Below are positions 6,001-29,546 of a DNA stretch of 34,267 bases, piece by piece (position 1 is the first letter of the stretch; each line of letters begins with the position of its first letter). The notes under the pieces were generated by a model. It ran no database searches. It was not told where the DNA came from and saw nothing but the letters and a program-made list of their open reading frames with translations. The translations under genes were made by a program, and so were the position numbers. The stretch lies in assembly GCA_001275005.1 (NCBI GenBank), contig JWZX01002415.1:1-34267 (forward strand), written 5' to 3'. This stretch comes from Chrysochromulina tobinii. Taxonomy: Eukaryota.

Positions 6001-6890
6001 AGGCGATGAGGGCAGCGCGGGCTATTGGCGGCGCAGACGAGCGCGCAGATGAGGGCGGCGTTGGCGTGGCGCCGGCTCACATGGATGGCGATTTCGACGA
6101 GATGATTGTTGATGATGTGGCAGCGCCTCTACTTCAGGCGACGCAGCTGTATGGCACGGTGAATGAGGACATCGAGGAGGAGTCCGAGGTCGACGAGGCG
6201 GTGCGCCGAGCCCCCTTTTGTCAGGCGACTCAGCAACACGGTGTGTCGCTGGCCGGCGAGGATGCTGTTGACGACGACGACGAGGCGGTGCAACGGTGCG
6301 GCTGGTTTGACGCGCGGCTGGCAGAGAGCACAAAGGGCCTCGCCGCGAGATGGGCGGCGTGCGGACTTGAGATGAATGATGAGCTCACGGGCGAGCTGAG
6401 CGCGGCGAGAGAGGTTGCCGAGTGCATGAGTGAGATGGCGTCTGACGACGTTCATGATGAGCTGATGTGTAGCATGGATGTAGTAGCGGAGGTGCATGCA
6501 CAGGATGCAGAGAGGGAGCAGCAGAGTGAGGGGGTGTCTGTAGGGTGCGTCCGGCATGACGGCGACGGCGTGAGCGGCGGCAACAGCGCTGATGGACGAG
6601 GGCTCGAGGGCGAAGACGGCGGCGACATGGGCTGCGAGAGTGCCGACGGCGTCGAGCAGGGGGCGTCGATGGCGGCGTGCGAGGCGGAGGACAGCGACGA
6701 GGACGAGGCTATGGTGGGCAAAGAGAACGCGTCGATGCAGCGCGCAGAGTACGGCGGCGGCGCGGCTGGGGACATCAAGAAGAGGAAGCACAAGCGGTGC
6801 ATGAGGAAGGGCAAGGGTCATCGGAAACGGTTGGCAATGGCGAGGGCTAATGATCTACGACTGGCGGCGGACGAGGCGAGCGTGAGCTGA
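3..6890 (+). CDS. LINE ORF2-like polyprotein (about 2,300 aa visible, 5'-partial), interrupted by two frameshifts near 938 and 3884
   Basis: The frame of ORF 75..1016 is open from base 3. RT motifs: LIPKPGKD..WREIWI, NAGFEPGRGC, QDYSVFFPSI, RGEPIGGVESP, YADD (1370-1381), YRYLGIDF, GGLGL. RNase H motifs: TDGA (about 3584), NNQAELDG (about 3791), IIDSE (about 4019), SSHCGFIPNVWADAVA (about 4182-4230). Knuckle CPAC..H..C at about 4923-4976. The motifs run in order across ORFs 75..1016, 839..3937 and 3891..6890. Confidence 0.8.
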
Positions 6891-7670: not shown

Positions 7671-10600
7671 TCAAATCCGCAGCTCAAAGCCAGCCTTTCC
7701 TTGCACTGCGTTACGAATGGAGGCCTTCCCTTCGCTGTCAATGCTGTTGTAGTTGAGGTTGCACTCGGTTAATGAGCTTGTGACGGCCACCATGGCCGCC
7801 ACTGACTTTGCTCCCACTGGACCAATGCTGTTGTCCTTGAAGTTGAGCGACGCGAGTTTCGTCTCCTTGTTGCTCTGGATGGCCTCGCAGACTGCGCTTA
7901 CGCCCTCATCCTTGAGGCTGTTAGAGGACAAATCCAGGGCTGTCAGCCCGCCATTGACTCGCAGAGCGTCGGCAATCGCTGTGATGCCCTCTGCAGTGTA
8001 GGTGCCTGTGTCACTGCCGAATGTCAACTGAACTCCGCAGAGTGCGTTGTTGGAGAGGTCCAGGCTTGTCAGCGAGCTATTGACGCGCAGAGCGTCAGCG
8101 ACGGCTGTGATGCCCTCCGCGTTGTAAGTGCCTGTGGGCATGCCCTTGTGAAACCAGACACCACAGAGGCGGGTGTTTGTGAGACTCAACTGCACAGGCT
8201 AAGAAACAAACGGGTCAGGAAAGAGGGGTCATGCGGATGTGGGCTGATAAGGAAACGTAAGGAAACTTACCTTCCTGAGCGAGCTGTTGACACGCAAGGC
8301 GTCGGCGACCGCTTTGGCACCCTTCCCACCAAGGTAGTTGCCCTGCAACCTGCAGGCACAAACACCAGAAAGCACACGGTACGAGTGGGTGCCGAAAGAG
8401 CTCAGGTGCTGGCAACGAGTTGTCCACATTCGGTAAGTACGAGTCGGGGGGGACGTACTCTATTTGAGTCAGCGAGCTATTGATGGCAAGTGCCTTAGCC
8501 AATGCGGTCGCTCCCTTTGGGCCGAAAATGGTTGATGAAACCGAGTTGCTCAGGTCAAGCTTGCTGAGGCTCATACTCTGCTCGATAGCAACTGAGAGCG
8601 CCTCCACACCTTCGTCGCCCAGCTTTATGTTATCAACAAGCGAGAGGTGTGTCAGCGCGCCTGTGACACCGGCCTGTGACAGGTCCGACGCCAGCAGCAT
8701 CGCATCGGGCGGCTTGAGGCTCTGCTTGGAGAAGTCAGCGGTGGTCTGGCTGCGCTGGATGCCGCAGAGCGAGATACCCTTCTGCTTGGCGACTTCAGCG
8801 AGCATCTTGGCGGACTCCGCATCAAGTTGATTGTGCAGGAGGTCAGTCACCTTCAGCGAACCTGTGACAACGGCCTGTGACAGGTCCGACGCCAGCAAGA
8901 TTGCATCGGGTGGCTGGAGGCCATTGCCGAAGAAGTCAGCGTTGGTTTGATCGCGCCGGATGCCGCAGAGCGAGATACCCTTCTGCTTGGCGACCTCAGC
9001 GAGCGTCTTGGCGGACTCTGCATCAAGCCGATTGCCCAGGAGGTTGACCACCGTCAGCGCGCCTATGGCAAGGTCCGACGAAATGAGGATGGCGTCTGCT
9101 GGGCCGAGGCCCAGGTTGGCAAAGTTGGCCTCTTTCTGATCGCGCTTGATGCCGAACAGCATGGTGCCTTTTTCGTTGCCGATCTTGGCGAGCTTTTTCG
9201 CTGACTCGCTGTCCAAGAAGTTTCCGCGGACATTACACTCCGTCAGCGTGCTTGTGACAGCCACCATGGCCGCCACAGACTTTGCTCCCACTGGACCGAT
9301 GCCGATTTGGCCCATGTTGATCGTTGCGAGCTGGGTCTCCTTATTGCTCTGGATGGCCTCGCAGATCGCACCAACTCCCTCATCACCAACGTGGTTGCCA
9401 TAAATAGACAACTTTATCAGCGCACCTGTGACACCAGCCTGTGACAGGTCCGACGCAAGCAGGATCGCATTACCCTCTCTGAGACCCTGGTTGGAGAAGT
9501 CAGCGGTGGTTTGATCGCGCTGAATGCCGCAGAGCGAGATACCCTTCTGCTTGGCAACCTCAGCGAGCATCTTGGCGGACTCCACATCAAGCTGATTGCC
9601 CAGGAGGTTGGCCAACGCCAGCGAGCCTGTGACGCTCGTGCGGAGCGCCTCGGCGATCAACTTGACACCAGCAGGGCCGATGTTCTCGGAGGATGCGTCC
9701 ATAGACATGATCTTGCTGTCCTTGTTGCCGCAGATGGCGGCAAAGATGGCACCCCAGCCCTCGTCCCCGAGCTTGTTGCCCCTGAGCTTGACGGACGTCA
9801 ATGCGCCATTGATGCGCAGAGCCTCCGCAATTGCTGTGATGCCCTCTTCAGTGTAGGTACCGCTGACCGTGCCAAATAGCCCTTTGACCACTCCACAGAG
9901 TGCATTGTTGGAAAGGTCCAGGCTCGTCAGCGCGCCGTCGACGCCAAGAGCTGCTGCGAGCTCCTTGATGCCCGTCATGTCCCTGCCAGAGTCGGTGAGA
10001 TGATTTCCGGACATGTTGATGCTCGTCAGCCCGCCTGTGACAACGGCCTGTGACAGGTCTGACGCCAGAAGGATCGCATCGGGCGGCTTGAGGAATTGGT
10101 CGGAGAAGTCAGCGGTGGAGAAGTCAGCGGTGGTCTGGTCACGCTGGATGCCGCAGAGCGAGATACCCTTCTGCTTGGCGACTTCAGCGAGCATCTTGGC
10201 GGACTCCGCATCAAGTTGATTGAGCAGGAGGTTGGCCACCGTCAGCCCGCCATTAACGCGCATGGCGTCGGCGATTGCAGTGATGCCCTCGGCGGTGTAC
10301 GTTCCCCTCAACGTTCCCCGGCCCCAAATGTCCACACCGCACAGCATGTTTTTGGAGAGGTTGATAGTCGTCAGCGCGCCGTTGACGCCGATCAGCGAGG
10401 CGATCACGATGGCAGAGGCAACACCGAGGCGCTTGTTTGAGAGGTCGAGGGACTCGACTGGCTCGGTGCCCTTGAGCTTCTTGATGGGCAGCGCATAACC
10501 GTCGAGGTTAACCTGAATGCAAAGAGCGCAAGCTGTCAGCTCAGAACAGGTCACAATTTGTGGTCCAAACACGCTGGGCCAGCGTACCTCCGTCAATGCG

Positions 10601-11746
10601 CCATTGATCGGAAGCATCATGGCAAGAAGCCGAGTGGCCACGTGCCCAAGGTGACAATCCCGGAGATCGAGCTCCTTGACGCTACCCTCACGTAGCTGCT
10701 GCACCGGAATGCCGCCGATGGTCCCGCTCGCTGCCAACGCGACGGCAGCCAGGAGCAGCTTCTGTGGCACCTCCCCTTCCTCCGGTGCAATGCATGCACG
10801 CAGGGCCTCTTGACAAAGTACTCTTGACAAAGTATCTCGAACATCATGATCCTCATCATGATCCTCGTCGCCTTCCCCCTCAGCTCCCAGTTCTGCTTGC
10901 CGGACAGCTGCGACGTCCACTGTGAAGCCGTAGCCAAGCAGCTTAGTAAGTCCGGGAAGCATCTGCCCGGCCGCGGCAACCTCCCACGGACAGCCTTCGC
11001 CGATGAGGTACTCCACGTCGATGGCTGTGACATCCTCACGACGCTTTGGCACTGTCGCTGGCCGACCCGCGTCGTCGAGGGGCCGAGCCGCGAGCGGACA
11101 CACACGAGAGCAGAGTTGGTGGCGTGCGCGTAGTTTCCATGCGCTGCTCACCGCCTTCAATGTGCGCAGCAGCGCAGTGGGAGCGTACTCGAGCGCGGCT
11201 CGGATGGCGTCCTCGGAGCCAAGTTGGCTAGCAACGGAGTGACGGAGTGGCGGTGGGGCGACCATGCTCGAAGACGACTCCTTGTCGTCCTCCTGTGAAC
11301 TTTCCTCTGGGGCCCCATCGCCCTCGGGCTCGAAGAGCGGCTCTGCGAGCATCAATGCGTGGGCCGTCTGGGGAATGGTCTCCTCGTTGCGCACGCAGAA
11401 CATCTCACACAACGCATGAACATCCAGGCCGTCAGCACGGCGGAAGAGCTCCGTGGCCAGAACCTTGAAGGCTTCAGAGGCGTAGAGGTAGTTTGCTGCC
11501 TCCATGGCGCACACGAGCTCTTCGAGCGCAACGTCAGCGAGAGGCAAAGAAGCCCGTGCTTGCAAGCTGGGCGATCACCAAAGAGACCGGTGGTGCAGCG
11601 CGCTCCACTCGGAGGACGTTGCCCTCGGTGTGCTCTATCATGTCCTTGAGAAATCCGGCGCGCCTCACCGCATCTCTTGAGAATTGGAGCTCCTCTCCAT
11701 CGGACGTGCAGATCGTGAATGACTCGACCTCGCGAGTGTGCTGCAT
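7671..11746 (-). CDS. Skp1-like + F-box-like + LRR (ribonuclease-inhibitor/NLRC3-like) protein. Exons about 11746-10588, 10512-8459, 8349-8271, 8189-7671, with one frameshift near 11538
   Basis: N-terminal TSDGEELQFSRDAVRRAGFLKDMIEH and EELVCAMEAANYL..ELFRRADGLDVHALCEMFCVRNE resemble Skp1. EDAIRAALEYAPTALLRTLKAVSSAWKLRAR resembles an F-box. Many LTSLDLSxN..G..A.A.AL..N repeats follow. GT-AG introns at 10513-10587 (75 nt), 8350-8458 (109 nt) and 8190-8270 (81 nt) keep the LRR frame. Confidence 0.8.
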
Positions 11747-12569: not shown

Positions 12570-12653
12570 TCAGAGGCCGCTCAGGATTCGTCAGAGGCCG
12601 CTCAGGATTCGTCAGAGGCCGCTCAGGATTCGTCAGAGGCCGCTCAGGATTCG
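12570..12653. repeat. Four exact copies of a 21-bp unit equal to the last six sense codons plus stop of ubiquilin (RILSGL*)
   Basis: TCAGAGGCCGCTCAGGATTCG starts at 12570, 12591, 12612 and 12633. Confidence 0.95.
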
Positions 12654-13445
12654 CTCGACGGCGGCGTTGACGTTTCCGCCGGTGGCGGTGAGCGCGCGCA
12701 GGTTGGCTTCTGCATCAAGGAAGCCCATGTCATGCAGCTGCGAGTTCTGCGAGGCGAACCTGACGGCAGGGTCGACGGGTGCGACGGGTGCTGCCGGGTT
12801 GCCCAGCATGCCTGTCGCCGCTGGGTTGCCCAGCATGCCTGCAAGCAGGTTGTTGACCATCGCGGGGTCGAAGGCGGCCGGGGCTCCTCCCACTGCCCCA
12901 GGAGGTGATGCCCCAGGAACAGCGGCGGCGGCGCCGGGCGCGGTGGGAGGCGGCGCCGGCAGTGCAAGCGGGCCGCCCATTAGGGCCTGCAGGACCGCCG
13001 GGTTCATGCCGCCCATGCCTGCCATGCCGCCCATGCCGCCGCCGCCCGCAGCACCCATCGCGGCCATCTGTCGTTGCATCATCATCTGGAGGAAGTTCGG
13101 GTCGGCCATCATCGCGCCCATGGCCTGTTGCATCGCCGGGTTGCGCATGATCGTCTGCATCGAGTTCATGAGCGCCTGTGGGTCGGCCCCGCCGGGCTGG
13201 TGCATCGCCATCATAGTCTGCTGCATGGAGGCCATCGCTTGAGGGTCGGTCATCATGGCCTGCATCATCTGCTGCACGCCCGGGTTCTGCATCATCTGCA
13301 TCATCACCTGTGGGTCCACCTGCATGCCGCCAAGGCCACCCATGGCACCGCCCATCATCGGATTGGCGAGCGGCATGCCCCCGGCGCCGCCGGCGCCGCC
13401 ACCCATGCCACCGCCCATCAGCGCCGCCATCATCGCTGGGTTCAT

Positions 13446-13477
<32 letters not shown>

Positions 13478-13478
13478 C

Positions 13479-13509
<31 letters not shown>

Positions 13510-13841
13510 GCGGCGGGACCACCCATGCCACCGGCGCCAAAGGCAGGCGCAGGAGGCGCAGCAGGCGCGGCAGCAGGCGCCCCCGCGGTCGGCACCGCCG
13601 GAGCGCCAGCAGGTGGAGGTCCCTTGACCATGTGAACCGTGTGGCCCTCCTGCACGTTGTACGACGCAACTGTCTCAGGGTCCTTGAGTACTTTTCCCGA
13701 GTAGATGAGGCGCTGCTGGATAGCAGGCACGCCGGAGGCCACCGCCACAACCTCCTTGAGCTCCTTGACCGTCTGTGTGGGTTCCACCTCGATTGCAATC
13801 GTCGAGCCCGACGCTATCTTGATTTGAAGCTTGAGCGGCAT
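12633..13841 (-). CDS. UBQLN: Ubiquilin/Dsk2-like UBL-STI1-UBA protein
   Basis: N-terminal UBL ([25 protein letters not shown]), M/Q-rich STI1-like repeats (MMQNP, MMADPN) and C-terminal UBA ([33 protein letters not shown]). Start taken at the ATG at 13841. Confidence 0.92.
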
Positions 13842-14149
13842 GGATAGGAGGGAGCGAGCGCAGAGAGACGTCTCGTCGGCTTCTGGAAGAAACTCGAGCT
13901 GTTTGTTCAGAACTATATTCACACTGTTGGCATCGCACGAAGGCCCCCCCTCTAATTAGCGAAAACCGGCGCTCCTATCCCCCTCTACGTCAGTCCTCTT
14001 GCGGCCATGTCAGCCGTGGCGCGCATGAAGCGAAGCATGCATGTGCATTTGTGAACAAAAATCCCAAAAGAGATCACACGTCTCGCCGCGGTCGAAAGAT
14101 CGCGACGAGAACCACACGACGCCTGTCTCTGAAGCTTTCTGCAGCCGAG

Positions 14150-15955: not shown

Positions 15956-16861
15956 GGCCCCCGTGCACGGCCCCTACACGGCCCCTACACGGCCCCCGCG
16001 CCTCTCGTCTTCGGGGGCAGTGGGGTGGCATAGCCTCAACACGCAGCCTGCACGTCGCGTACCGTAGTTCTGCCACACATGGACGATGGAGCGTCAGTTG
16101 GAGTGTGCGCGAACGCACCGTCGGCTGAAATCAGTTGTACAGCCAACGAGCAACGAGAGTTAATGGACATGCGAATGCGGAATGGAAGAGGGGACGGGGC
16201 AGACGAGATGGACTGAGATTCGGATCAACAAGCGGCGCCGGGCGCGGCGCCCGGCGCCGGCGGCACTGAGAGTGTGCACTGTGGCAGCTGGAAGTGGAAC
16301 TCCGACTGGTTGTGGCCAATGCGCACGCCACGTGGTCGGATGTAAACAGTAGGAACGGAAGGGGGTCTGGGCTCCGTGCTGTGGCGCTATTGGCACCGCG
16401 CCGCGCCGCGTGCCTGCTGTCTCCGCACCCCGATCCCGCGCCTGATGTCTTACGGTGCGACCCGGTGTGTCCTGGTTCACCTGCGTTGGCGTGCCGGTGA
16501 GCTGCACTTCATGGACATGGTCCATGCGATGCACTCCATGGCGGAGGTGACGAGAAAGGTTAAGGTAATAAGTTTAATAGACTCCTCCGTCTACAATGAA
16601 GAATTACCTCGCGACCCTCGTGCCAGCCTAATTGTAATATTGTATCCTAATCGGCATCGGCTAATGATTGAATGCGGCCATTCTCGTCGGTCTGAGACTA
16701 CGTGGTCGCGCGCCGATCCACACGAGCTGCAGTGACTCATTGAGCACGCGGCCGCGAGTCAGAGCAACAAGAATCAGCGCTGGCTGTCGACACGTAATCA
16801 GAGATCATCATCATGGCATGAGCTCGGTTACTTCAGAGCTCGGTTTCGTGAGCGCTGATCA

Positions 16862-19800
16862 TCACACGTGGTCAAGTGATGCGCGGTTCGCCGCGGAGTT
16901 GCCTTGCGCCCCTACGCCCAATGCATTTCCCCACAGGAGTCCACGAGTGCGGGAGGGCTTGGATGGGTCGGGTGAGCCGCCCGAGGGCTTCTCACGCTCG
17001 AGCCGCGCGTGCAGCGTCGCAACGGCGGCGCGCAGGTCAGCGTCGGTCGGGCCGTGGGGACGTGGGGCTAGGAGCCCCTCGACACGCTCCATCTGCTGCC
17101 CCAAGCGTTCGTCCAGCGCGCTCAGCTGCGCCTCGACGCGCTTGAGCAGCGCCTGAGGGGTGGCGCCCGCTGCGTCGGTGCCCGCTCGGTCATGGAGCAG
17201 GAAGCGCTGCACGTACCTGTGGGAAGGGAGGCGCCGTGGTGAGCACATGCATGCTGTGGGCGCCCGCGGTCATGGAGCAGGAAGCGCTGCACGTACTTTT
17301 TGGAGACGGGGGTGCGCGAGATACGCTGGTTGAGCGGGCGCGCGGCCGCGAGCTTGTGCAGCTTCTCGACGCCGAGCTCGGCGAGGGAGATGTCCGTCCG
17401 GCACATGTAGCGCCGGAGCGCGGCGCCGATCTCAGCGAGGAGTTTCGTCAGGAGCAGCGGCAGCGAGAAGGGAGGCGGGATGGCGGCGATGACGTGGTTG
17501 TGCTCAAAGATGGGCAGGAAGCGCTGGTAGTGGTACTCGACTTCGGCATTGCCCTTGATGCGCGCGTACGTGTCGGCAAACATGGCGATCAATAGGTTGA
17601 CGAGCACCACGTTGATGACCATCATCAGCACATACATGAGCGGCAGGGCAAAGGGGATCGACGAGAATCGTTCGGTCTCGAGGTCGGTGAACATGGCCCA
17701 GAGCGGCAGTGCGAGCAGCGGCAGCGAGCCGTCCGCATCCGCTTCGTCATCTGCGCCCGTGCCACGTAGCATGCGTCCGAGGGCAGCGGCGGAAGACGCC
17801 TTAGAGGCGGCGAGGATGGAGGCGATGGAGTCGGAGGTGATGGGGGTGAGGGGGGTGAGGGGGGTGGTGCCCGCGGCAGGCGACCCGACGAGCAGAGGCG
17901 CAGGATCGTCGTTGGAACCCCACAGCCAGTTCCACAGCATGGTCGTCGGCTCGTCGGAGAGCCGATGCGTCGAGGTCTCGGAGAGGCCGAGAAGGGCACC
18001 GCTGAAGCCCAGCAAGATGACTGCAAAGAAGACGAGGAAGAGGGAGAGGTCGACCAGCATCTGCTCCATGATGATCGTGAGCACACCAAAAGAGAGCGAC
18101 GGCCACCTGTGGGGAGGGGAGGGCGACGTGGTGAGCACTTGCATGCCGAGCCGTGGTGCAGCAGGGTTCAAACGAGAGCGACGGCCACATGAAATTGAAG
18201 AGCTCGATGCTGATGGGCACCGCGTCCATTGACACGAGGGTCTGGTAGAGCAGATAGCACGAGTGCTGTAGCGGCAGCGCCACGTCCGCATACTCACTCG
18301 GCACCGGCGCGACCGAAAGGAGACGCACCCCGATCGCCAGCGCCAGGAGCGCATACGCAAATTGCACGATGCCCTGGACAGGCATCGTGGCCGTCAGTCC
18401 GAAGCCGCGCATGCTCACGTGCAGATGCCACTGCTCGAGCCCCAGGGTGAGAGACCACACGATGAAGAGCCCCTCGGTTGGGTTGAGAGGCGGCAGCGAG
18501 AGGCCCGCGTCGCCGGCCGCGAGGGTCGCGAGCTGGTCGGCAGTGAGCAGGTGCGTGAGCTCATACGCATACAGCGCGAGGAAGGCGAGTTGCCAGAGCG
18601 CCCGCACCCAGAACTTGACCAGAGGCACCCTATAGAACGACACGAAGGCCGATGGAGGTTGGGCGCCTGCCGGCAACTCTGCGTTCAAGAGAATGATCCG
18701 GCGCGCTCCCCGAGGTGTGCCGAGGTGCATGCTGCCCTTGGTCTGTGCTCGGCGCACGCGCGCGGCCACCCAGGAGGCATCCTGGGCGACGATGTCCATG
18801 CCCTCGAGATGATGCACTGCGCCCTCGGCCTTGGGCTCCGAACTGTCCTCCAGCATGTCATTCATGCTCTTCGTGCGCACCGTGAAGAGACTCTGGTGCT
18901 TCAATGCATCGGGTTTGTCGGGCGAGGAGACGCTGTTCGCCGTCTTGGCGCGCGCGACTGTGGAAGCCATCTTAAGGTTCGCCGAGCCCTTGGCCGCAGA
19001 TCGCTCTCGGGAAGAGAGGCGCAGCGCCTGCGCGAGCGCCCCGTAGAGCAGATCCTCGAGCTGCGCGGTCGTGCGCACGTTCTTCATGTCTTTGTGGTCC
19101 TCCGCCATCTGGAGGTACGGGTTGAGGAAGGGCAGCACGATGTACGCACAGAGCGAGAAGGCGTTCTGGTCGGCCGAGAGCAGGCAGAACGAGCCTGGGT
19201 AGCCGCCACGCCACCACAGGTCCATGAGAGACTGGCAATGCCGGTGCGCCAAAAAGTTCTTGCGCTCCATGTGAAGAGCGAGCTCGACGAGCGCTCCCAT
19301 ATGCCATTCGGGCACGTTCTGCGACAGGATGACGTGCGCGACCTCCTGAGGCTCAACACCACCCTCGAGCATGCAGGTGGGTCAGCATGCAATGCGAATG
19401 CGGGAGGGCCATCAACCTGCCATCAGTCGCAATCAGCATGCAACGCGAATGCGGGAGGGCCATCAACCTGCCATCCGTCGCAATCCCACCTGCTCCTCGA
19501 CACCGTCGAGCACGGAGATGGCCCAGCGCTCCAGAGTCTCATGTGCCTCTTTGACCTTCGCCTTGCCCCAGCTCACCTTGCCGTGCATCTTCTGCAGCAG
19601 GTGGCTCGCGATCAGCGCGCAGTGTAGCGGGTTCTCCACGTGCGCCCAAAGTTCACGTGCCAGGTGCACGTTGCCCATGAAGACTGCCCAGAAGAACAAA
19701 TCGACCTCCGACGCGCGCCGCTGATGCGAGACTGCCGCGTAGAGCAGGGGCGAGGCCGAGCGCAAAAAGGGGCCTACTACCTCGAGGTAGAGCGAGTAGC

Positions 19801-22800
19801 TCAGGTTGCGTGCGACCGAGCCGTCAGCGAGTCGCTGATCGAGACGCTCTTGGAGCTCAACGTCGGCGCGCAGAAAGTTGTACGGGTCTTCCTGCAGGTA
19901 CAGCTGGCACAGGTTGACCTGTGGATGGATGGAGAAGCCATGTGAAAGGCAATTAAGGCGTATGGTGGCGTATGGAGGCGTATGAAGGCGTATGGAGCAA
20001 TCGGAGGCCATTCGAGACCATTCGAGATCATTCGAGATCATCCGAGATCATCAGAGGTCATCAGTGGCCATCAGAGCCAGTTCGAGGCCATCAGCGGTCA
20101 TCAGAGGCCATCAGAGGGCCACCAGATGCCATCAGAGGTCGTCAGAGGCCAACATAGCCAATTCGAGGCAAATTGCGTACCTGGTCGATCTTGGAGCCCG
20201 GTCGCTCGAGCAGCAGCTTGACAATCTCTGTGTTCTGGTACTCGAGCGCATGCTGGAGCATCTTGCGCAGCGGGCGCGAGTAATCCTCGGTGGACGGCAG
20301 CTCCATGAGCATGCGGCGCGCGAAATCGGGCTGCGGAAGAGGGGAGGAGACAAAGCTCATCAGAGGCACTCCGAGGTACTCCGAGGCACTCCGAGGCACT
20401 CAATGATAGTCCAGGGCCATCCAGGGCCATCCAGGGCCATCCAGGGCCATCCAGGGCCATCCAGGGCCATCCAGGGCCATTCAGGGCCATTCAGGGCACG
20501 CACCTGGTTCCATTTGACGGCAAGCAGCAGCGCGCGTTGCATATGGTCATGCCGACGACTCTCATTCTTCTCAGCGAGCTGCACGACGCGAACGAGCTTG
20601 GTGGTGCTGAGCGATGACGGTGTCGGTGCACTACGCGACGCTTTCATAGACGAACCCTGAGTCGCCGAGCCGTCGAAGAAGGATGCATGCTCGAGGTCAG
20701 CATGCAATGAGGGAGGGCCATCAGCATGCAATCAGTCGCCATCACACCTGCTCGAGGGCGTGATCGCCCGAGCTCTGGTAGAACATGAGGTTGCGGAAGA
20801 GGCAGCGGAGCAGCGCCGTGGCCATCGTCTCATCCGTGGCCTCATCCGCGAGCTGAAGGCAGGAGAGCAGCGTGCCATTTGTCAGAGACCATTAAAGACC
20901 ATCGGAGGCCATCAGAGGCACTCATCAGAGGCCATCAGAAGGCAATCATCAGAGACCTTCAGAGGCAATCCTCAAAGGCAATCATCAGAGGCCACCAGAG
21001 GCACTCGGCGTGCCTGAAAGAAGGAGAGGAGGGTGCCCTCCCGCGCCTCGTTCATCTGACGCAGCGTCTCAAGCTTCGCCTCCGACTCGAGAAAGGCGCC
21101 GTCTTGAACGCTCCCAATCCCGCGCTCGCAGTACTGCCAGAGCGCCGTAGCCGCGCCGCCACTGTCCGCGAGCACGAGGAGGGGCGAGCCCTGCTCGGCC
21201 GACGCAAGCATCATGTCGAGGGTGCCCGGGCCGCCCTGCACTACGAGCAGCACGACGGGCACGCCCTTCATCTTCGCGTACGTGTGCTCGAGATCGGCTC
21301 GCATCTTCACCTGAGGAGGGAGGCAATCAGCATGCACTCAGAGACGCAATCAGCAATGCAATCAGGCACGGGGAGCTCGAGATCGGCTCGCATCTTCACC
21401 TGAGGAGGGAGGCAATCAGTAATGCACTCTGAGACGCAATCAGCAATGCAATCAGGCACGGGGAGCTCGAGATCGGCTCGCATCTTCACCTGAGGAGGGA
21501 GGCAATCAGCATGCACTCTGAGACGCAATCAGTGGCGTCATCAGCGGCGGCACTCGAGAGAGGTCTTCACCTCATGTCCCCAAGCGATGGAACCCTCATC
21601 GTATTGCCGGTGGCCGTCGACGAGGATCTGGTGCGTGTGGTACGGATTGAGGCGCGCTGCGTGCGGGCCGCTCTGGCCGCCGGCGCGATACACGCGCGTG
21701 TCGCCCTTGCAGCCGTGCATGCCCTGTCTGCCCAACACGGCGCCCCAGGGGGCGACCCCGACTAAGGGAACGTCGAGACCATACTTATGTATCGCCTCGC
21801 CCACGAGCTTCATCACGCCGCTGTCCGTGCCGCCGGTGAAGATCCACGCGTTGGTCATCGCGGCCGCCGTCGCGAGGCCGCGGTCGAAGACGCGCTGCAG
21901 GTTGGCGGTGAGGGTCAGGGTCGCTGCAGATCCCGTCACCGAGATGAGCACGTCAGGGCGCGGCAGCCGCCAAAACTTTTCGAGGAAGTGTGAGAGCGCC
22001 GCGCACGACGTCGTGTCTGAGACGCGGATGAAGCGCGCCACGCGTGAGCCCGACAGGAACGAGACCATCCCAAAATCGGACATGGAACCGTCCTTGTTGG
22101 CGAACATCATCGGACCGTACGCCGCGTACATCGCACTGTGCTGCCGGTACCATCGCTGAATCTTGAGGCACGCGCGGTCGCGCCTGGACGCATCCGGCTT
22201 CTCGAGCTTGGCGCTCAGCTCTTTGATGGTCTTCCCACGCTTGACCGCCGCCGCCGCAGTCTTTAGGATCGTGCTCGAGCTCCTCGGAGATTGGCTGGAG
22301 ATGCTGCATCTCGGATTGGCTGACGCCGCAGACGACGCACCGGCAGACGACGCACCGGCAGACGACGCACCGATCGGTGGCCGCGACGGCTGCGGCTGCT
22401 GCAGTGCAGCCGCGGACGCGCACGTCGGCACTGAAGTGGGCGCAGTAGATGGCACGCACGCTGACTTGTCTGAACGAGCCCCGAAGCCGAACGAGGCCGA
22501 ACGAGGCCCGGGAGTGGCAGTAGCAGCAGCGGCGGCAGGAGCGGCCACAGGCTTCGGCGGCTCGGGCTCCGGCTGCCGAGGCTCGTCCGCGAAACGCACG
22601 TACGAGCTGCAGCCCATGGCGCGGCCGAGGGTCCCAGGCAAGAGACGGCTAAATGGTTCTGAAGCCAATGACGAGGCGCAAGCTGGCCTGTGGGCAGGCC
22701 CGGGTGTTGCCGTAGGCGGCGAAGGTGCCGGAAGCGGCTCTGGCTGCAGAGGCTCGTCCGTGAGTCGCTCGTATGGCATGGAACCGATGGCGCGGCCGAG

Positions 22801-22863
22801 GGTGCCAGGCTCGAGACGGCTAAAGGGCTCCAAGTCGTCGCTCCACCTCGCTTTGCGACTCAT
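16862..22863 (-). CDS. TRPM-family cation channel, 9 exons. Introns at about 21311-21570, 20853-21013 (GC-AG), 20690-20747, 20331-20503, 19919-20180, 19346-19489, 18107-18188, 17217-17296
   Basis: SLOG/MHR motifs WRLPRPDVLISVTGSA, AWIFTGGTDSGVMKLVGEA, LNPYHTHQILVDG and VPVVLLVVQGGPGT. Also LFFWAV..LARELW, FLAHRHCQSLMDLWWRG, FYRVPLVKF, and S6/TRP region NVVLVNLLIAMFADTY with IPPPFSL. Joining at the listed splice sites gives a continuous frame. The intron 3 acceptor (GAG) and the start codon are less certain. Confidence 0.88.
19957..20170. repeat. Degenerate about 10-nt intronic repeats (CGTATGGAGG, CATTCGAGAT, CATCAGAGGC types)
   Basis: They fill most of TRPM intron 19919-20180. Confidence 0.85.
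20411..20497. repeat. (CCAGGGCCAT)7 plus variant copies, intronic minisatellite
   Basis: Seven exact 10-mers at 20411-20480 inside intron 20331-20503. Confidence 0.95.
21286..21533. repeat. Tandem 89-90 bp units, each containing a splice acceptor and the first 25 nt of the next exon
   Basis: Minus-strand CCTCCCTCCTCAG|GTGAAGATGCGAGCCGATCTCGAGC occurs three times, with junctions at 21490, 21400 and 21311. Confidence 0.92.
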
Positions 22864-23006
22864 CGGCCAAGACGGCCAACTCCACCGCGAAAGAAAATTC
22901 ACACGTTTTGAAAAAGAGCGTCGTCGTGGCGTAATCGAAAGTACGCGCGCGTTGTGACATGAACAGCACAGCAGCAGCACCTACTTCGGCAGCCAAAACA
23001 CTGACT

Positions 23007-23957
23007 CTACAACCGACTCCGGGCACCGATGCGCGCCCGGCACCATTCGACGACATGCTGCCTCGCCTCCTCCGCGTCGAGTACCTCGTGCAGCAGCCCC
23101 GCAAAGACGCGCATCTCCTTGTCTGGCTGTGGGGACTTGGCCATCAGGGCGTCGCACGCGCTGCGCGGGCAGAGCTCATCGGCGCCCCCGTGCACGAGCA
23201 AGAACGGGAAGCCCCTGCCCGACACGGCGCTTCCAAAGTGGGGCAGGAGCGCCTGGCAGGTAGCCCGCATGTCGAGCAACGCGAGCGCCGTGCGGTTCTG
23301 GATCCAGCCGTGGTAGTTGAGAGGGTCGGCCCACTTATCGGCCGCGCGCTCCGGGAACGAGGTCAGCTCCGAGGGCGACGGAATCGGGGCCGCCGGCCCG
23401 GTGGGCTGCGTCTTCGCCAGCTGGGCGCAAATGGTACGGATGACGCTCGGCATCGCCCGCAACACCGGGATCAGAAACTTGAGCCCAAAAGGAGGGGAGA
23501 TGCTGTCCATCGCAAACCCTGAGAGCACAACCATCGCGGGCCTTGGGAGGGACGGATCTGTCGCCAATCGGTGCGCCACGATCATCGCCATCATGCTGCC
23601 GAGTGAGTGGCCAAGCACGATTAGCGGCAACGAGGCGCGGGCCGTGTCCTGCACCAGCGCGATCACGTCGGACACCGCGCCTTCGACGGTGCCAAAATCG
23701 CCACGCTCGCCTGCACTGTTACCGTGCCCGCTGAAGTCGACGGCGTGGACCTCGACGCCGACGGCACCGAAGGCGGCGGCGAGCTTATCGTAGCGGCCAG
23801 AATGCTCGTGGGTACCGTGGCAAAGGTAGAGCTGCGCCTTGACCTGTTTGGAATTGGGGCAAGCCCAGAAGCGGCGGCAGCGGCGCGCAGTGCCTTCGCC
23901 AACATTCGTGCATGTGGATGGTGACGACGACACCGACCCGGTGACCACCACCTTCAT
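23007..23957 (-). CDS. Alpha/beta hydrolase, monoglyceride lipase/lysophospholipase-like
   Basis: HGTHEHSGRY, AVDFSGHGNSAG, nucleophile GHSLG, LVHGGADELC and GLLHEVL. Start codon uncertain. Confidence 0.88.
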   Translation of the reverse strand: MKVVVTGSVSSSPSTCTNVGEGTARRCRRFWACPNSKQVKAQLYLCHGTHEHSGRYDKLAAAFGAVGVEVHAVDFSGHGNSAGERGDFGTVEGAVSDVIALVQDTARASLPLIVLGHSLGSMMAMIVAHRLATDPSLPRPAMVVLSGFAMDSISPPFGLKFLIPVLRAMPSVIRTICAQLAKTQPTGPAAPIPSPSELTSFPERAADKWADPLNYHGWIQNRTALALLDMRATCQALLPHFGSAVSGRGFPFLLVHGGADELCPRSACDALMAKSPQPDKEMRVFAGLLHEVLDAEEARQHVVEWCRARIGARSRL

Positions 23958-24094
23958 CACCACAAGCGCCCGACGAAGACAACCTGAGCCCTGAGCCCTG
24001 GAGACGAAACTGTCAGTTCAGAGTGCGTAAAGATAAAAACCCAAGTCACCTAAACGTAAATTTGGATAAAGAAAACCACCCCTTGAGCCGCTGG

Positions 24095-24142
24095 GGAGCC
24101 TCCTTGACTTGAACTTGACTTGACTTGACTTGAGGAGCCTCC
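24095..24142. repeat. (TTGAC)n tract flanked by a 9-bp direct repeat, GGAGCCTCC
   Basis: GGAGCCTCC at 24095-24103 and 24134-24142 surrounds TTGACTTGAACTTGACTTGACTTGACTTGA. Confidence 0.85.
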
Positions 24143-24228
24143 GCTCGCTTTTTGTGCAAATTCTTCTCGAGCCACTGCTGCTGCCCGAGGCGGCCGCCAC
24201 GTTTGCGGTCACATCCGTCGTCAGTCCC

Positions 24229-25769
24229 ATGGGTTCCGTCCTCGGCACGTGCTTCGGCTCGTGCCTAGCCTCGTGTGCAACGTCGGCCATATGCAGTCTC
24301 ACGGGCTGCGCATGCATGATGTCGCCCAAATGGGCCAACATGATGTACGTGATCTTCATCACCATGACCGTCATCGTGAGCCTCTCACTCAAGTACTCTG
24401 GCAAGGACCTGAACATCGGCTACGAGGTTGGCATGCCGACGTCGACGCCCTCGGTCTGCGTCCCATCCCCCGCCGAGGCCGCCGTTGTTGTCGCGGGCGT
24501 TGTCATCAAGCCTGCTGTACCTGCCAACAACTGCGACAACCTCGCCTACGATATGTGCAATTCCACGAGCTGCCAGGGCATGTGGGCCGTCTACCGCCTG
24601 ACATTCTCGCTCGCGGGCTTCTTCCTCGTGATGCTGCTGCTCACCTGCACAAAGACGAGCTTCTCCACGACCATGCACCGCGGCTTCTGGTTCGGCAAGG
24701 GCCTTGGGCTCACCGGGGTCGTCATCGCGTGCCTCTTCGCGCCCAACGACCTTTTCGCCGGGTTCGCATGGTTCGCTCGCATCGGCGCGCCCCTGTTCGT
24801 CATCTACCAGGTGGTCTGTTTCATCGATTTCGGATACACCTTCAGCACGAAAGTCGTTGAGAAGGACGAACGCGAGGACAACTTCTTCGGCCTCACCAAC
24901 CACGGTGGCAAGTACAAGGGCTTCATGCTGTTTGTACGCGCGCGCGCCGCCCATTCCCAGCCCTCGATCGGTGCCCCCCTTCTGCCCGCTCCTTGGGCGC
25001 TCCATCGTGGGCGCACCCTCGCCACGCCGCCGACGCCGACGTACGTGTGCTGTGTGCTGCGCGCTGGCTGCAGGTGTGCTTTCTCCTTGTGGTCGCCGCG
25101 TTCGCGGCGACCGCGGTGCTCTACAGCGTCTACCCGAGGGAATGCGCATTCAACAACGCGGCCGTCACGACGTCGCTCCTTTTCTCGCTGATCAACTTCG
25201 GCATCACGATCTCGCCCATCGCTGAGCATGGCTCCATCCTTGTCGCCTGCCTCGTCTGGTGCTACTCGACGTACCTCGCCTTCTCGGCCATCTCCGCCTT
25301 CCCAGAGCCGAGCTGCAATCCCTATGTGGAGACCAAGGAGGGGGACACTCTCTGGCTGGTCATCTCGGTGGCGATCGCGGCCGCCTCGATCGCCTGGATG
25401 GCCTACCAAAACGGCGCGCGCCAGATGGGTGGCAACGCTATGGATGGCAAGGAGCAGGTGCCCACGACAGCGTCCAACGACACTGTCGCTGTCGTGGTGC
25501 GCGTGGATCCTATCGTCGGCAGCGGCGCCGCCGAAGCGGCCACGGCAGACTCGTACGTCTCGTACCACCTCGTCATGTTCCTCGCGTCGCTGTACGCCGC
25601 CATGCTCGTCACCGATTGGGGCGCGGAATCGACCACCACAGGCTCTACGAGGGAAAACCTAGGCTACCCATCGGCCTGGCTCTTGCTAGGATCCATGTGG
25701 GTTTGCCAGCTCATCTACTTTTGGACCCTGATCGCGGCGCGCGCGTGCCCGGACCGAGACTTCTCCTAA
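24229..25769 (+). CDS. SERINC: Serine incorporator (Serinc/TMS1) family membrane protein; exons 24229-24933 and 25074-25769
   Basis: MG start with Cys-rich N-terminus, CQGMWAVYRLTFSLAGFF, MHRGFWFGK, IDFGY, YHLVMFLASLYAAMLVTDW and C-terminal WTLIAA..PDRDFS. A 140-nt GT-AG intron joins the two ORFs in frame. Confidence 0.93.
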
Positions 25770-28026: not shown

Positions 28027-29144
28027 ATGGTGCGAACTCTTTTCCCGGGCGCGGGCAGAACCCCGCCGTCGCAGCCCGTCCATTCCACCTCTGACTGCGC
28101 TGCTTCTCTTGTCTCCTTACCCGCAGGCGTCACAGCATGTCGCGGGCATCCCGCGCAGCGGCAAGATGCTGGTACGCGCATCCTCGACTCTTGCTGTGCT
28201 GCGGCCTGTCTGCGCCTGCGCGCCCATGGCGCAGCGTTCGCCTGACTACTTCGCTCACGAGCATCCTTTCCGTCCGTCCGCAGGCGCTCATCAATTACCG
28301 CATGCGCGTCACCATTCAGGACAGCCGCATGTTCGTCGGCAAGTTCATGGCCTTTGACAAGTACATGAACCTCATCCTATGCGACTGCGAGGAATTCCGG
28401 AAAGTAACCGTCAAGGGCAAGAAGGAGGAGCGTGAGGAGAAGCGCACGCTTGGCCTCGTGCTCATCCGTGGTGAGACGGTTGTCTCCATGTCCGTCGAGG
28501 GCCCGCCGCCGCAGGACGATCGGCGGCGCGCGGTCGTGGGTGCAGCCGGGGGCCCAGGCTCGGGCAAGGCGGCGGGCCGTGGTATGGCCATCGGTGGGCC
28601 GATGAGCGCGCCGGCTGGCCTGTCGGGGCCCGTACGCGGCGTCGGCGGGCCCGGCGCGGCGTCGATGCTGCCGAGCGCTGGCCGTGGCGTCGCCGCGCAG
28701 CCGCAGATGTACGGCGGCCCTCCGCCTGGAGGTCCACCCCCGGGCATGCCGCCGCCCGGGATGCCGCCGCCATCGGGCATGCCGCCTCCGGGCATGCCGC
28801 CGCCGGGCATGCCGCCGCCCGGCTACCCGCCGCGCGGCCCGCCACCGCCGGGAATGCCGCCGCCGGGCATGCCGCCGCCCGGCATGCCGCCGCCCGGTTA
28901 TCCGCCCCGCGGCCCTCCGCCGGGGGCGCCGCCGCCGGGCATGCCGCCGGGCATGATGCCGCCGGGCTATCCGCCGCGCGGCCCGCCGCCGCCGGGGATG
29001 CCGCCACCCGGCGCGCCGCCGCCCGGCTATCCGCCGATGATGCCTCCGGGGTATCCGCCGCGCGGCCCGCCGCCACCAGGAATGCCGCCACCCGGATATC
29101 CGATGCCACCAGGCATGCCGCCACCCAGGCCGCCGGGGCAATGA
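28027..29144 (+). CDS. SNRPB: Small nuclear ribonucleoprotein SmB/B'; exons 28027-28029 (ATG only), 28127-28171, 28284-29144
   Basis: Spliced product [72 protein letters not shown] with a PPPGM repeat tail. GT-AG introns at 28030-28126 and 28172-28283. Confidence 0.95.
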
Positions 29145-29546
29145 GCAGATCTCGAGCACTGCGCGCGCACGGATCCTCTGGCGGGTATTGGCGGTCCCGG
29201 CGGCCCCGGGAGTCGGCAGCGTCAGCCTTCGCTGAGCGGCGGCAACAGGTTTGTCGACGGCTCGCCCGGCGGGCGCTCAGGCTCATGTGGCAGGTGGAGG
29301 AGCCGCGACGCACGATGGCGACTCTTCGCCGGGGCAGCACGGAGCACGGTGGTGTTATCTCGCCCCCCGCGACCACTCCATGGCCCCTGTCCCACGCAGT
29401 ACCAGTAGAACCCTGGCCCACCACGGAGACACGTTCGCCGAACCAACCTGTAGAACTGTATCATGGATTGCAACAGAATGCTGTTTAGAGATGACAACGC
29501 TGGGCACCTATGAAAACTTTACCTGAGTGTACCCTACCATCTCTCA

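What the first reader, a model, noticed from the sequence alone, without database searches (positions are those of the whole stretch)
17187..18188. Intron-creating insertions: a shared acceptor cassette plus a 15-30 bp duplicate of the exon edge
Seen: intron 17217-17296 starts with an exact 30-nt copy of the downstream exon start (GTACGTGCAGCGCTTCCTGCTCCATGACCG). Intron 18107-18188 starts with a 15-nt exact copy (GTGGCCGTCGCTCTC, then one mismatch and TTTG). Both end in nearly the same cassette of about 40 nt: GCATGCA(A/T)GTGCTCACCACG(G/T)CGCC..TCCC..CCCACAG. The donor GT therefore comes from duplicated exon sequence and the acceptor from the inserted cassette, so splicing restores the coding sequence exactly. 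Known: described introners are mostly non-autonomous DNA transposons with short fixed target-site duplications and usually terminal inverted repeats. Inference: long variable duplications without inverted repeats point to another intron-gain route, such as target-primed reverse transcription or templated repair of staggered breaks.
Basis: partly seen in the sequence, partly recalled or inferred. Interest (0 to 1): 0.85.

Follow-up and report, generated by a model that had tools for sequence, protein, structure and literature searches.

The report
Introns built from borrowed intron ends
In the alga Chrysochromulina tobinii many introns (likely thousands) consist of a copy of the next exon's first 15-45 bases joined to an end shared with other introns, likely pasted in during repair of a DNA break, a route of intron birth for which a published survey of this genome lists no family.

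Summary
Both minus-strand introns of this TRPM-like channel gene start with an exact exon copy (30 and 15 nt) and end in a shared ~40-nt branch-point/acceptor cassette. RNA contigs skip intron 1, their edges fit splicing of intron 2, and a DNA contig holds both. The pattern recurs across related contigs: 138 of 185 distinct cassette copies carry a copy of the downstream exon (controls 20 of 909), 113 starting at exon base +1, median end +30. There are no inverted ends or poly(A) tails (0 of 97 each). New here: cassettes resemble neighbours in the same gene more than chance, some carry sequence native to a neighbour's exon, and one intron absent from a 98%-identical relative shares its last 50 bases exactly with the intron 447 nt downstream. 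A second cassette and a mirror-image class exist. Best reading (0.6): microhomology-guided templated insertion copies one end of an existing intron into an exon and duplicates the target. RNA versus DNA template is unresolved. The 2025 introner survey lists 0 families for this genome.

The parts
16862..22863 (-). Host gene: TRPM-like cation channel (SLOG + TRPM2-like domains), 9 exons, 1582 aa
   Evidence: 1582 of 1582 residues match KOO29445.1, which has 8 extra residues; exon blocks follow a 2927-nt RNA contig of X15
17217..17296 (-). Intron 1 (80 nt, phase 2, GT..AG)
   Evidence: 80-nt skip in RNA contigs of X15 and X18
17267..17296 (-). Intron 1: exact 30-nt copy of the downstream exon start; supplies the GT donor
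17255..17266 (-). Intron 1: 12-nt filler, source not found
17217..17254 (-). Intron 1: cassette A (38 nt); predicted branch A at 17240, C-rich tract, CAG acceptor
   Evidence: A at core position 15 invariant in 70 of 70 non-seed copies; the branch role is inferred
17187..17216 (-). Exon start that is duplicated in intron 1
18107..18188 (-). Intron 2 (82 nt, phase 2, GT..AG)
   Evidence: RNA contig edges 18106/18174 in X13 and X14
18169..18188 (-). Intron 2: exon copy, 15 nt exact (18174-18188), 20 nt with one mismatch; the mismatch makes a second GT that the public gene model uses
18147..18168 (-). Intron 2: 22-nt filler; its last 7 nt are shared with a copy in L009
18107..18146 (-). Intron 2: cassette A (40 nt); predicted branch A at 18132
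18087..18106 (-). Exon start that is duplicated in intron 2
21311..21570 (-). 260-nt intron: tandem array (period 90) of a 25-nt exon-start copy plus a second acceptor cassette (B); only 7 nt of exon copy at the donor itself
   Evidence: the 5' end is not significant on its own (p=0.40)
20853..21013 (-). Mirror-type intron (GC..AG, 161 nt): its last 24 nt copy the upstream exon end (19 of 24) and supply the AG
   Evidence: 0 of 1000 controls
19346..19489 (-). Mirror-type intron (144 nt): 3' part resembles the upstream exon end (25 of 36); skipped in RNA contigs
   Evidence: 0 of 1000 controls
20657..20747 (-). 91-nt intron whose 5' half resembles the repeat unit of intron 19346-19489 in the same gene
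   Evidence: exon-copy test not significant

Best explanation
These introns consist of a copy of the downstream exon start joined to a ~40-nt acceptor end shared by many introns, and they likely arise when repair of a break or stalled fork in an exon copies the end of an existing intron, often one in the same gene, and duplicates 15-45 bases of the target. Shown: the anatomy, its recurrence, the strand bias, same-gene kinship and one empty site. Inferred: a DNA end anneals through a few matching bases to the template intron, synthesis runs through branch point, C tract and AG, and the strand rejoins the gene about 30 nt behind where it left. The product splices cleanly only if the duplicate begins at a donor-like GT/GC or right after an existing acceptor, so selection keeps those. 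The mirror event copies a donor end and takes the AG from a duplicate of the upstream exon. Each new intron can serve as the next template, so the shared cassette would spread serially without being a transposon. The template is slightly more likely pre-mRNA (about 55:45) than nearby DNA; this was not resolved.
For: Exon copy in 138 of 185 distinct acceptor-type cassettes vs 20 of 909 swapped controls; 113 of 138 start at exon +1 (ungapped 132 of 185 vs 6 of 917). Copy length varies (10-47 nt) and trades off against filler (rho -0.65), so introns stay 57-102 nt. The insert has a fixed 3' end at AG and a ragged 5' end. Same-gene kinship: near-identical cassettes in 23 of 170 same-strand pairs within 4 kb vs 353 of 15414 between contigs, 0 of 29 beyond 4 kb and 0 of 18 on opposite strands. 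Permutation p=0.0002 by pair and 0.016 by contig (7 of 29 contigs). Borrowed exon tags: the intron at L067:12571 carries 6 nt native to the exon copy at L067:10042, joined at a 5-nt match; the intron at L060:9083 carries a stretch native to the exon at L060:7253; each tag occurs before a cassette on no other fetched contig. Empty site: L118 has an 81-nt intron with a perfect 33-nt duplicate; L015 lacks it to the base at 97.9% flank identity. The last 50 nt of that intron equal those of the intron 447 nt downstream in the same reading frame of L015. Full-length homologues at about 50-69% identity have no insertion at either window site, some as single ORFs on contigs of 7.8-17 kb (intron-less DNA is inferred). 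The same design occurs with a second cassette and in mirror image.
Against: Only 33 of 109 copies with a same-strand neighbour have a significantly close one, and the two window cassettes are not close siblings (edit distance 6 vs median 8). Many copies share an upstream stretch across contigs, so copying between genes also happens, or a master element exists. Most fillers have no local source (mean match 7.6 vs 6.3, p=0.22). Microhomology lengths come from pairs picked for shared sequence, so they are biased upward. One tag (L067:15864 to 17664) also occurs in L018 and L086 and was discounted. There is only one clean empty site, with no outgroup; recombination between 33-nt repeats could also delete an intron precisely. 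No enzyme or intermediate was identified.
Confidence: 0.6

Rival explanations
1. SINE-like target-primed reverse transcription in trans: a retroelement enzyme nicks DNA, copies an intron RNA from its free 3' end, truncates early and leaves a long target-site duplication.
For: Fixed 3' end, ragged 5' end and variable duplication. A longer shared upstream sequence occurs on several contigs, and 3 of 185 copies carry their own family donor. Non-LTR introners are about 5% of classified cases in PMC12130899 (passages).
Against: No A5/T5 run in 97 inserts. 161 of 185 cassettes are followed by GT or GC, and 205 of 210 close neighbours share orientation, whereas random insertion should leave many intergenic and antisense copies. 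The mirror class has its precise junction at the 5' end. Same-gene kinship.
Confidence: 0.2
2. Aborted intron loss: an older introner family sat at these sites, and break repair later replaced one half of each intron with exon sequence copied across the splice junction.
For: It explains both mirror classes with one process. Full-length introns with their own donor exist (L012, L063). Copies of exon edges also turn up inside existing introns (L048 vs L009). Spliced RNA can template break repair in human cells (PMC12065846, passages).
Against: Only 3 of 185 copies keep a family donor within 45 nt, while 32 of 94 duplicates are still perfect. The empty site in L015 and exon tags borrowed from other introns point to gain at new sites. 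Homologues appear to lack both window introns.
Confidence: 0.13
3. Ordinary non-autonomous DNA transposon (MITE-type introner).
For: A repeated sequence that supplies the acceptor while the target duplication supplies the donor is the logic of Symbiodinium and Polarella classes 4/5 (10.1101/2020.10.14.339549, parts 1-2 of 4). Some introners lack inverted ends (PMC9860276).
Against: 0 of 97 inserts have inverted ends. Duplications run 10-47 nt and vary, against fixed 3-8 nt in those classes. There is no fixed 5' end.
Confidence: 0.04
4. Assembly artefact or chance repeats.
For: Short-read assemblies; repeats can be mis-joined.
Against: An unbroken DNA contig crosses both introns, controls give about 2%, duplicates carry their own substitutions (62 of 94 imperfect), and RNA skips intron 1.
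Confidence: 0.01

Closest known systems
Introners that take the donor from the target duplication (Symbiodinium; Polarella glacialis classes 4/5 and 6/8/10; 10.1101/2020.10.14.339549; PMC9860276 Fig. 2B)
   Same: Repeated insert supplies the acceptor, the duplicated target supplies the donor, and the mRNA is restored exactly.
   Different: Their duplications are fixed at 4 or 8 nt, and the Symbiodinium elements have inverted ends. Here the duplication is 10-47 nt and makes up about a third of the intron, there are no inverted ends, the 5' end is ragged, and nearby introns act as sources.
Introners of marine Chrysochromulina MAGs (PMC9860276 Fig. 2C)
   Same: Same genus label, no inverted ends, one splice site co-opted from the target.
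   Different: 4-bp duplication, and they carry the donor. No match to these cassettes in the held supplement (file cut when stored), so kinship is untested.
Intron gain by staggered break repair in Daphnia pulex (PMC4202315)
   Same: A direct repeat of the adjacent exon end at the opposite end of a new intron; complex internal repeats.
   Different: Repeats of 4-12 bp and AT-rich inserts of mostly unknown source. Here the repeats are longer and the insert is the end of another intron.
Same-gene intron duplication and reverse-splicing transposition (fungi, Oikopleura; PMC3609843, PMC4122922, PMC3443670)
   Same: A new intron resembles another intron of the same gene.
   Different: Those are near-identical whole introns and few (82 in 24 fungi). 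Here usually one end is copied, with a long target duplication, at large scale.
Tandem genomic duplication of an AGGT segment (PMC3443670)
   Same: Duplicated exon sequence becomes intron and gives a splice site.
   Different: Both sites come from the duplicate there. In the two window introns the upstream exons end in AAA and CAT, so the AG and branch point come from the insert.

Membership tests
MITE-type DNA-transposon introner | Terminal inverted repeats | tested here: not met
   0 of 97 inserts with 7 of 8 complementary ends; whole introns fold no better than shuffles
MITE-type DNA-transposon introner | Short fixed-length target duplication (3-9 nt) | tested here: not met
   10-47 nt, median 27, in 94 simple introns
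MITE-type DNA-transposon introner | End-to-end similarity of copies | tested here: not met
   only the 3' ~40 nt are shared; 3 of 185 carry a family donor
Introner in the broad sense (repeated sequence that makes introns on insertion) | Many related copies at unrelated exonic sites, one splice site carried and one co-opted | tested here: met
Introner in the broad sense (repeated sequence that makes introns on insertion) | Presence/absence polymorphism | tested here: met
   one case, L118 vs L015
Introner in the broad sense (repeated sequence that makes introns on insertion) | Derived from a transposable element with an autonomous partner | not testable with these tools
   no whole genome is held for this window
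Non-LTR / SINE retrotransposition (TPRT) | Variable-length target duplication with fixed 3' end and truncated 5' end | tested here: met
Non-LTR / SINE retrotransposition (TPRT) | Poly(A) or simple-repeat tail | tested here: not met
   0 of 97 inserts with an A5 or T5 run
Non-LTR / SINE retrotransposition (TPRT) | Insertion in either orientation and outside spliceable sites | tested here: not met
   205 of 210 neighbours under 300 nt share orientation; 161 of 185 followed by GT/GC
Non-LTR / SINE retrotransposition (TPRT) | tRNA/5S/7SL-derived head | tested here: inconclusive
   no Rfam match in 16800-23000; a head could be lost by truncation
Staggered-break intron gain (Daphnia type) | [quoted passage not shown] | tested here: met
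Staggered-break intron gain (Daphnia type) | Repeat of 4-12 bp, non-repetitive insert | tested here: not met
   vs PMC4202315 passages
Tandem genomic duplication (AGGT) | Both splice sites come from the duplicated segment | tested here: not met
   no shared letters before the donor in either window intron; 20 of 94 with none
Intron transposition by reverse splicing | Whole intron copied seamlessly, no duplication | tested here: not met
   138 of 185 carry an exon copy; one near-whole copy at L060:9083

The most novel reading that the evidence does not exclude
Spliceosomal introns in this alga reproduce without any transposon: break repair reverse-transcribes the donor end or acceptor end of an intron from the gene's own pre-mRNA into a nearby exon, the 15-45-nt repair scar supplies the missing splice site, and serial copying has made a large share of the genome's introns and is still running.
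Probability: 0.35. Interest if true: 0.92.

Novelty: new variant of a known kind. Interest (0 to 1): 0.78.

Why it matters
Where new introns come from is a long-standing question, and current surveys credit large-scale gain to transposon-derived introners. The 2025 survey lists 0 introner families for this genome, plausibly because only half of each intron is shared (inference). If the reading holds, there is a second mass route to new introns that such screens miss. Each intron keeps a record of its target (the duplicate) and often of its parent (the borrowed end), so parent-daughter chains can be traced in a cultured alga with a 59-Mb, likely haploid genome (PMC4580454). The duplicates also mislead annotation: the public model adds 5 duplicated residues at intron 2.

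Tried and rejected
No whole genome is held for the window and the metagenome records could not be extended, so copy number is only estimated. Post-insertion tuning of the donor was rejected: mismatch rate 24 of 470 at positions 3-7 vs 92 of 1523 further in, p=0.5, and the exon copy has the same donor-like consensus. Selective loss of AG/GT in the duplicate was not seen clearly (AG 15 lost vs 13 gained; GT 13 vs 7). Age coupling between duplicate and cassette divergence: none (rho -0.02). A local source for fillers in general: not significant (p=0.22). Special RNA structure: none (z -0.6 to 1.2); no Rfam match. Microhomology at the acceptor junction of sibling pairs is only slightly above background (2.7 vs 2.0 nt, p=0.02, pairs not independent), so it does not separate DNA from RNA templates. 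DNA run X19 did not hold the locus, and the joined form in other runs was not given. The 2 hits in prokaryote genomes lack the acceptor tail and look like chance; the 1 viral-contig hit was too near the contig end to test. The family-B control is inflated by tandem copies (62 of 610 at score 12 vs 70 of 130 observed). The donor-motif search and the 31-row mirror list hold many false rows (paralogous repeats, acceptor-acceptor pairs), so no ratio of the two classes is given. Paper searches found no description of this architecture in haptophytes. Subscription papers, bioRxiv supplements, files 13-14 of PMC12130899 and the cut part of the PMC9860276 file were not seen and could bear on novelty.

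Full report
Observation. The sequence is as described. On the minus strand, intron 17217-17296 is a 30-nt exact copy of the next exon start, 12 nt of filler and a 38-nt cassette ending CAG. Intron 18107-18188 is a 15-nt exact copy (20 nt with one mismatch), 22 nt of filler and a 40-nt cassette. The upstream exons end in AAA and CAT, so the AG cannot come from the target.

Host gene and organism. The introns lie in a TRPM-like channel gene (SLOG and TRPM2-like domains). Removing eight introns gives 1582 aa; keeping either focal intron truncates it. All 1582 residues match KOO29445.1 of Chrysochromulina tobinii, recorded on a contig of the window's length. That model adds 3 residues at one junction and a duplicated 5-residue stretch at intron 2, where it uses a second GT 15 nt inside the duplicate. 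Homologues lack those five residues.

Splicing. RNA contigs of X15 and X18 skip exactly the 80 nt of intron 1. They differ from the window by SNPs, so an intron-less allele is not excluded. For intron 2 no joining contig was listed. RNA runs X13 and X14, identical to the window, both break at 18106 and 18174, while a DNA contig of X1 runs through 16800-19423 unbroken. A restart at 18174 is what the 82-nt intron predicts; the annotated donor would give 18172 (my inference from the letters at the branch). X15 also holds unspliced intron 2 with 0 differences.

Scale. A 20-nt cassette pattern hit 139 stretches of metagenome contigs before the scan stopped at its limit, 1 viral contig and 2 prokaryote contigs that lack the acceptor tail. 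In 721 kb of loci plus the window there were 291 cassettes; 222 were acceptor-like with enough flank, and 185 distinct. Away from seed hits there were 13 inexact copies in 204.5 kb, and the window has 2 in 34 kb. Scaled to the 59-Mb genome (PMC4580454, passages) this is roughly 3,500 or more copies, a rough estimate, against about one intron per gene in 16,777 genes.

Anatomy across copies. 138 of 185 carry a copy of the downstream exon within 150 nt upstream, against 20 of 909 swapped controls; 113 of the 138 start at exon base +1 and the copy ends at a median of +30. Ungapped: 132 of 185 vs 6 of 917, with 105 starting GT and 6 GC. Of the 21 others, 9 follow an AG, several at what looks like an older acceptor. 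I dropped 17 tandem or long cases from the 111 GT/GC copies to leave 94 simple introns: duplicate 10-47 nt (median 27), filler median 7, intron 57-102 nt, duplicate and filler lengths anticorrelated (rho -0.65), 32 of 94 duplicates perfect. Both copies share a donor-like consensus (mostly GTGCG or GTACG), and 103 of 132 follow a G. The A at core position 15, about 28 nt from the end, is invariant in 70 of 70 non-seed copies; its role as branch point is inferred from the YTNAY motif, which I recall from general knowledge. There are no inverted ends and no A/T runs in 97 inserts.

Where the cassette comes from. Near-identical cassettes (edit distance 3 or less) occur in 23 of 170 same-strand pairs within 4 kb (15 tandem pairs excluded), in 353 of 15414 pairs between contigs, in 0 of 29 same-strand pairs beyond 4 kb and in 0 of 18 opposite-strand pairs. 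Permutation gives p=0.0002 by pair and p=0.016 by contig (7 of 29); restricting to one series of long contigs gives 20 of 155 vs 110 of 8038. Some fillers carry sequence native to another intron's exon. L067:12571 has 6 nt from the exon copy at L067:10042, joined at a 5-nt match. L060:9083 carries a stretch that belongs to the exon at L060:7253, 2 kb downstream. Parents lie on either side. Against this: only 33 of 109 copies have a significantly close neighbour, the two window cassettes are not siblings, one apparent tag recurs on other contigs, and a longer upstream sequence is shared between contigs, so copying between genes also occurs.

Empty sites. All-against-all comparison gave a handful of overlapping loci from different assemblies; five pairs were aligned. 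L118 has an 81-nt intron with a perfect 33-nt duplicate, and L015 lacks it to the base at 97.9% identity (L056 shows the same split match). The last 50 nt of that intron are identical to those of the intron 447 nt downstream in the same open frame of L015; no other fetched locus matches exactly, and one matches with 2 changes. That favours recent gain from the neighbour, though there is no outgroup and the neighbour was not seen in L118 itself. L033 vs L071 differ by one tandem unit, and L009 vs L048 by duplications inside introns. For the window gene, homologues at 69% and about 50% identity show no insertion at either site; P0053, P0007 and P0008 are full-length on contigs of up to 7.8, 17 and 10 kb (cluster members included), which suggests intron-less DNA if those are unspliced gene calls.

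Wider system. A second acceptor cassette shows the same design (70 of 130 vs 62 of 610, control inflated by tandem copies), including the array at 21311-21570. A mirror class starts with a repeat-rich donor end and finishes with a copy of the upstream exon end: clear cases include L016, L028, L039 (two with the same 5' end, 393 nt apart), L040, L041, L062 and window introns 20853-21013 and 19346-19489. Of the eight introns of this gene, four pass an exon-copy test at an end and four do not.

Mechanism. The simplest account is a templated insertion with two strand switches: leave the gene about 30 nt after a donor-like site, copy an intron end through a short match, and return behind the exit point. 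Selection keeps products that splice. Sense-only copies, kinship limited to about gene length, and occasional spread between genes fit a pre-mRNA template; transcript-templated break repair is shown in human cells (PMC12065846, passages). Direct-orientation DNA template switching plus selection fits nearly as well. No enzyme was identified.

Comparison with the literature. Described introners have 3-9-bp duplications and often inverted ends (PMC9860276, passages; 10.1101/2020.10.14.339549, parts 1-2 of 4; PMC11282704, passages). Daphnia new introns have 4-12-bp exon-edge repeats (PMC4202315, passages). Same-gene intron copies are known but few (PMC3609843, passages; PMC3443670 and PMC4122922, passages). 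Fungal sister stwintrons insert without duplications (PMC8469720, passages). Repeats of 4-30 bp near splice sites are reported broadly (PMC11782384, abstract). C. tobinii appears only in the genome list of the held 2022 supplement (file cut) and with 0 introner families in the 2025 one (PMC12130899). Ten searches found no description of this architecture. An earlier AI note on the same genome (e1-2577349) reports the same footprint and reads it as a mobile sequence; it is not independent evidence, and its listed summary does not mention same-gene copying or the mirror class.

Verdict. Real, repeated and apparently undescribed: it works like an introner but fails the tests for MITE-type and SINE-type elements. 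New variant of a known kind, interest 0.78.

Noticed in passing
window 18169-18188 and 21005-21013: The public gene model KOO29445.1 has 5 duplicated residues at intron 2 and 3 extra residues at the GC-donor intron relative to the junctions supported by RNA contigs and homologues.
   Followed up: yes
window 21286-21532; L002, L012, L033, L053, L063, L069: Tandem arrays of [exon copy + cassette], as expected from unequal exchange between the two duplicates; unit number differs between L033 and L071.
   Followed up: partly
window 19919-20180, 20331-20503, 20853-21013: Introns filled with 10-nt repeats rich in CTGAT-type words, which resemble branch-point motifs; one bin has about 900-fold the summed DNA contig depth of single-copy sequence. 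Origin unexplained.
   Followed up: no
L014:1010, L069:4531, L093:342, L063:10970, L098:219 and 284: Duplicates that do not start with GT begin right after an AG, so a new acceptor seems to have been added at the end of an older intron.
   Followed up: partly
L019:2433, L029:3397, L059:178, L103:347, L124:339, L129:186: Patchwork introns that switch between exon copy and cassette fragments at short matches, like repeated template switching.
   Followed up: no
L012:4805-4952 and 10510-10578; L063:18584; L053:7931; L040 near its end: A ~70-nt full-length intron with its own donor plus cassette A; a possible founder of the family.
   Followed up: partly
L001:3001-3048: One cassette copy lies in a contig filed as viral; host contamination or a virus-borne copy is not distinguished.
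   Followed up: no
window 7700-11574 (-): Long leucine-rich-repeat ORF with DNA-level repeats of 126 and 201 nt.
   Followed up: no
window 12570-13955 (-): Ubiquitin-like plus UBA protein with proline/methionine-rich repeats, followed by four exact 21-nt repeats after the stop.
   Followed up: no
window 28095-29485 (+): LSM-domain protein with a long proline/glycine-rich repeat tail, like Sm B (name recalled).
   Followed up: no
window 23010-24017 (-), 24124-25766 (+), 30131-31840 (+): Alpha/beta hydrolase, Serinc-family protein, and a PUB domain in the same frame as a GH85 glycosidase.
   Followed up: no
window 839-3934 (+) and 3852-6887 (+): Two stop-free frames of over 1000 codons with no Pfam match.
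   Followed up: no
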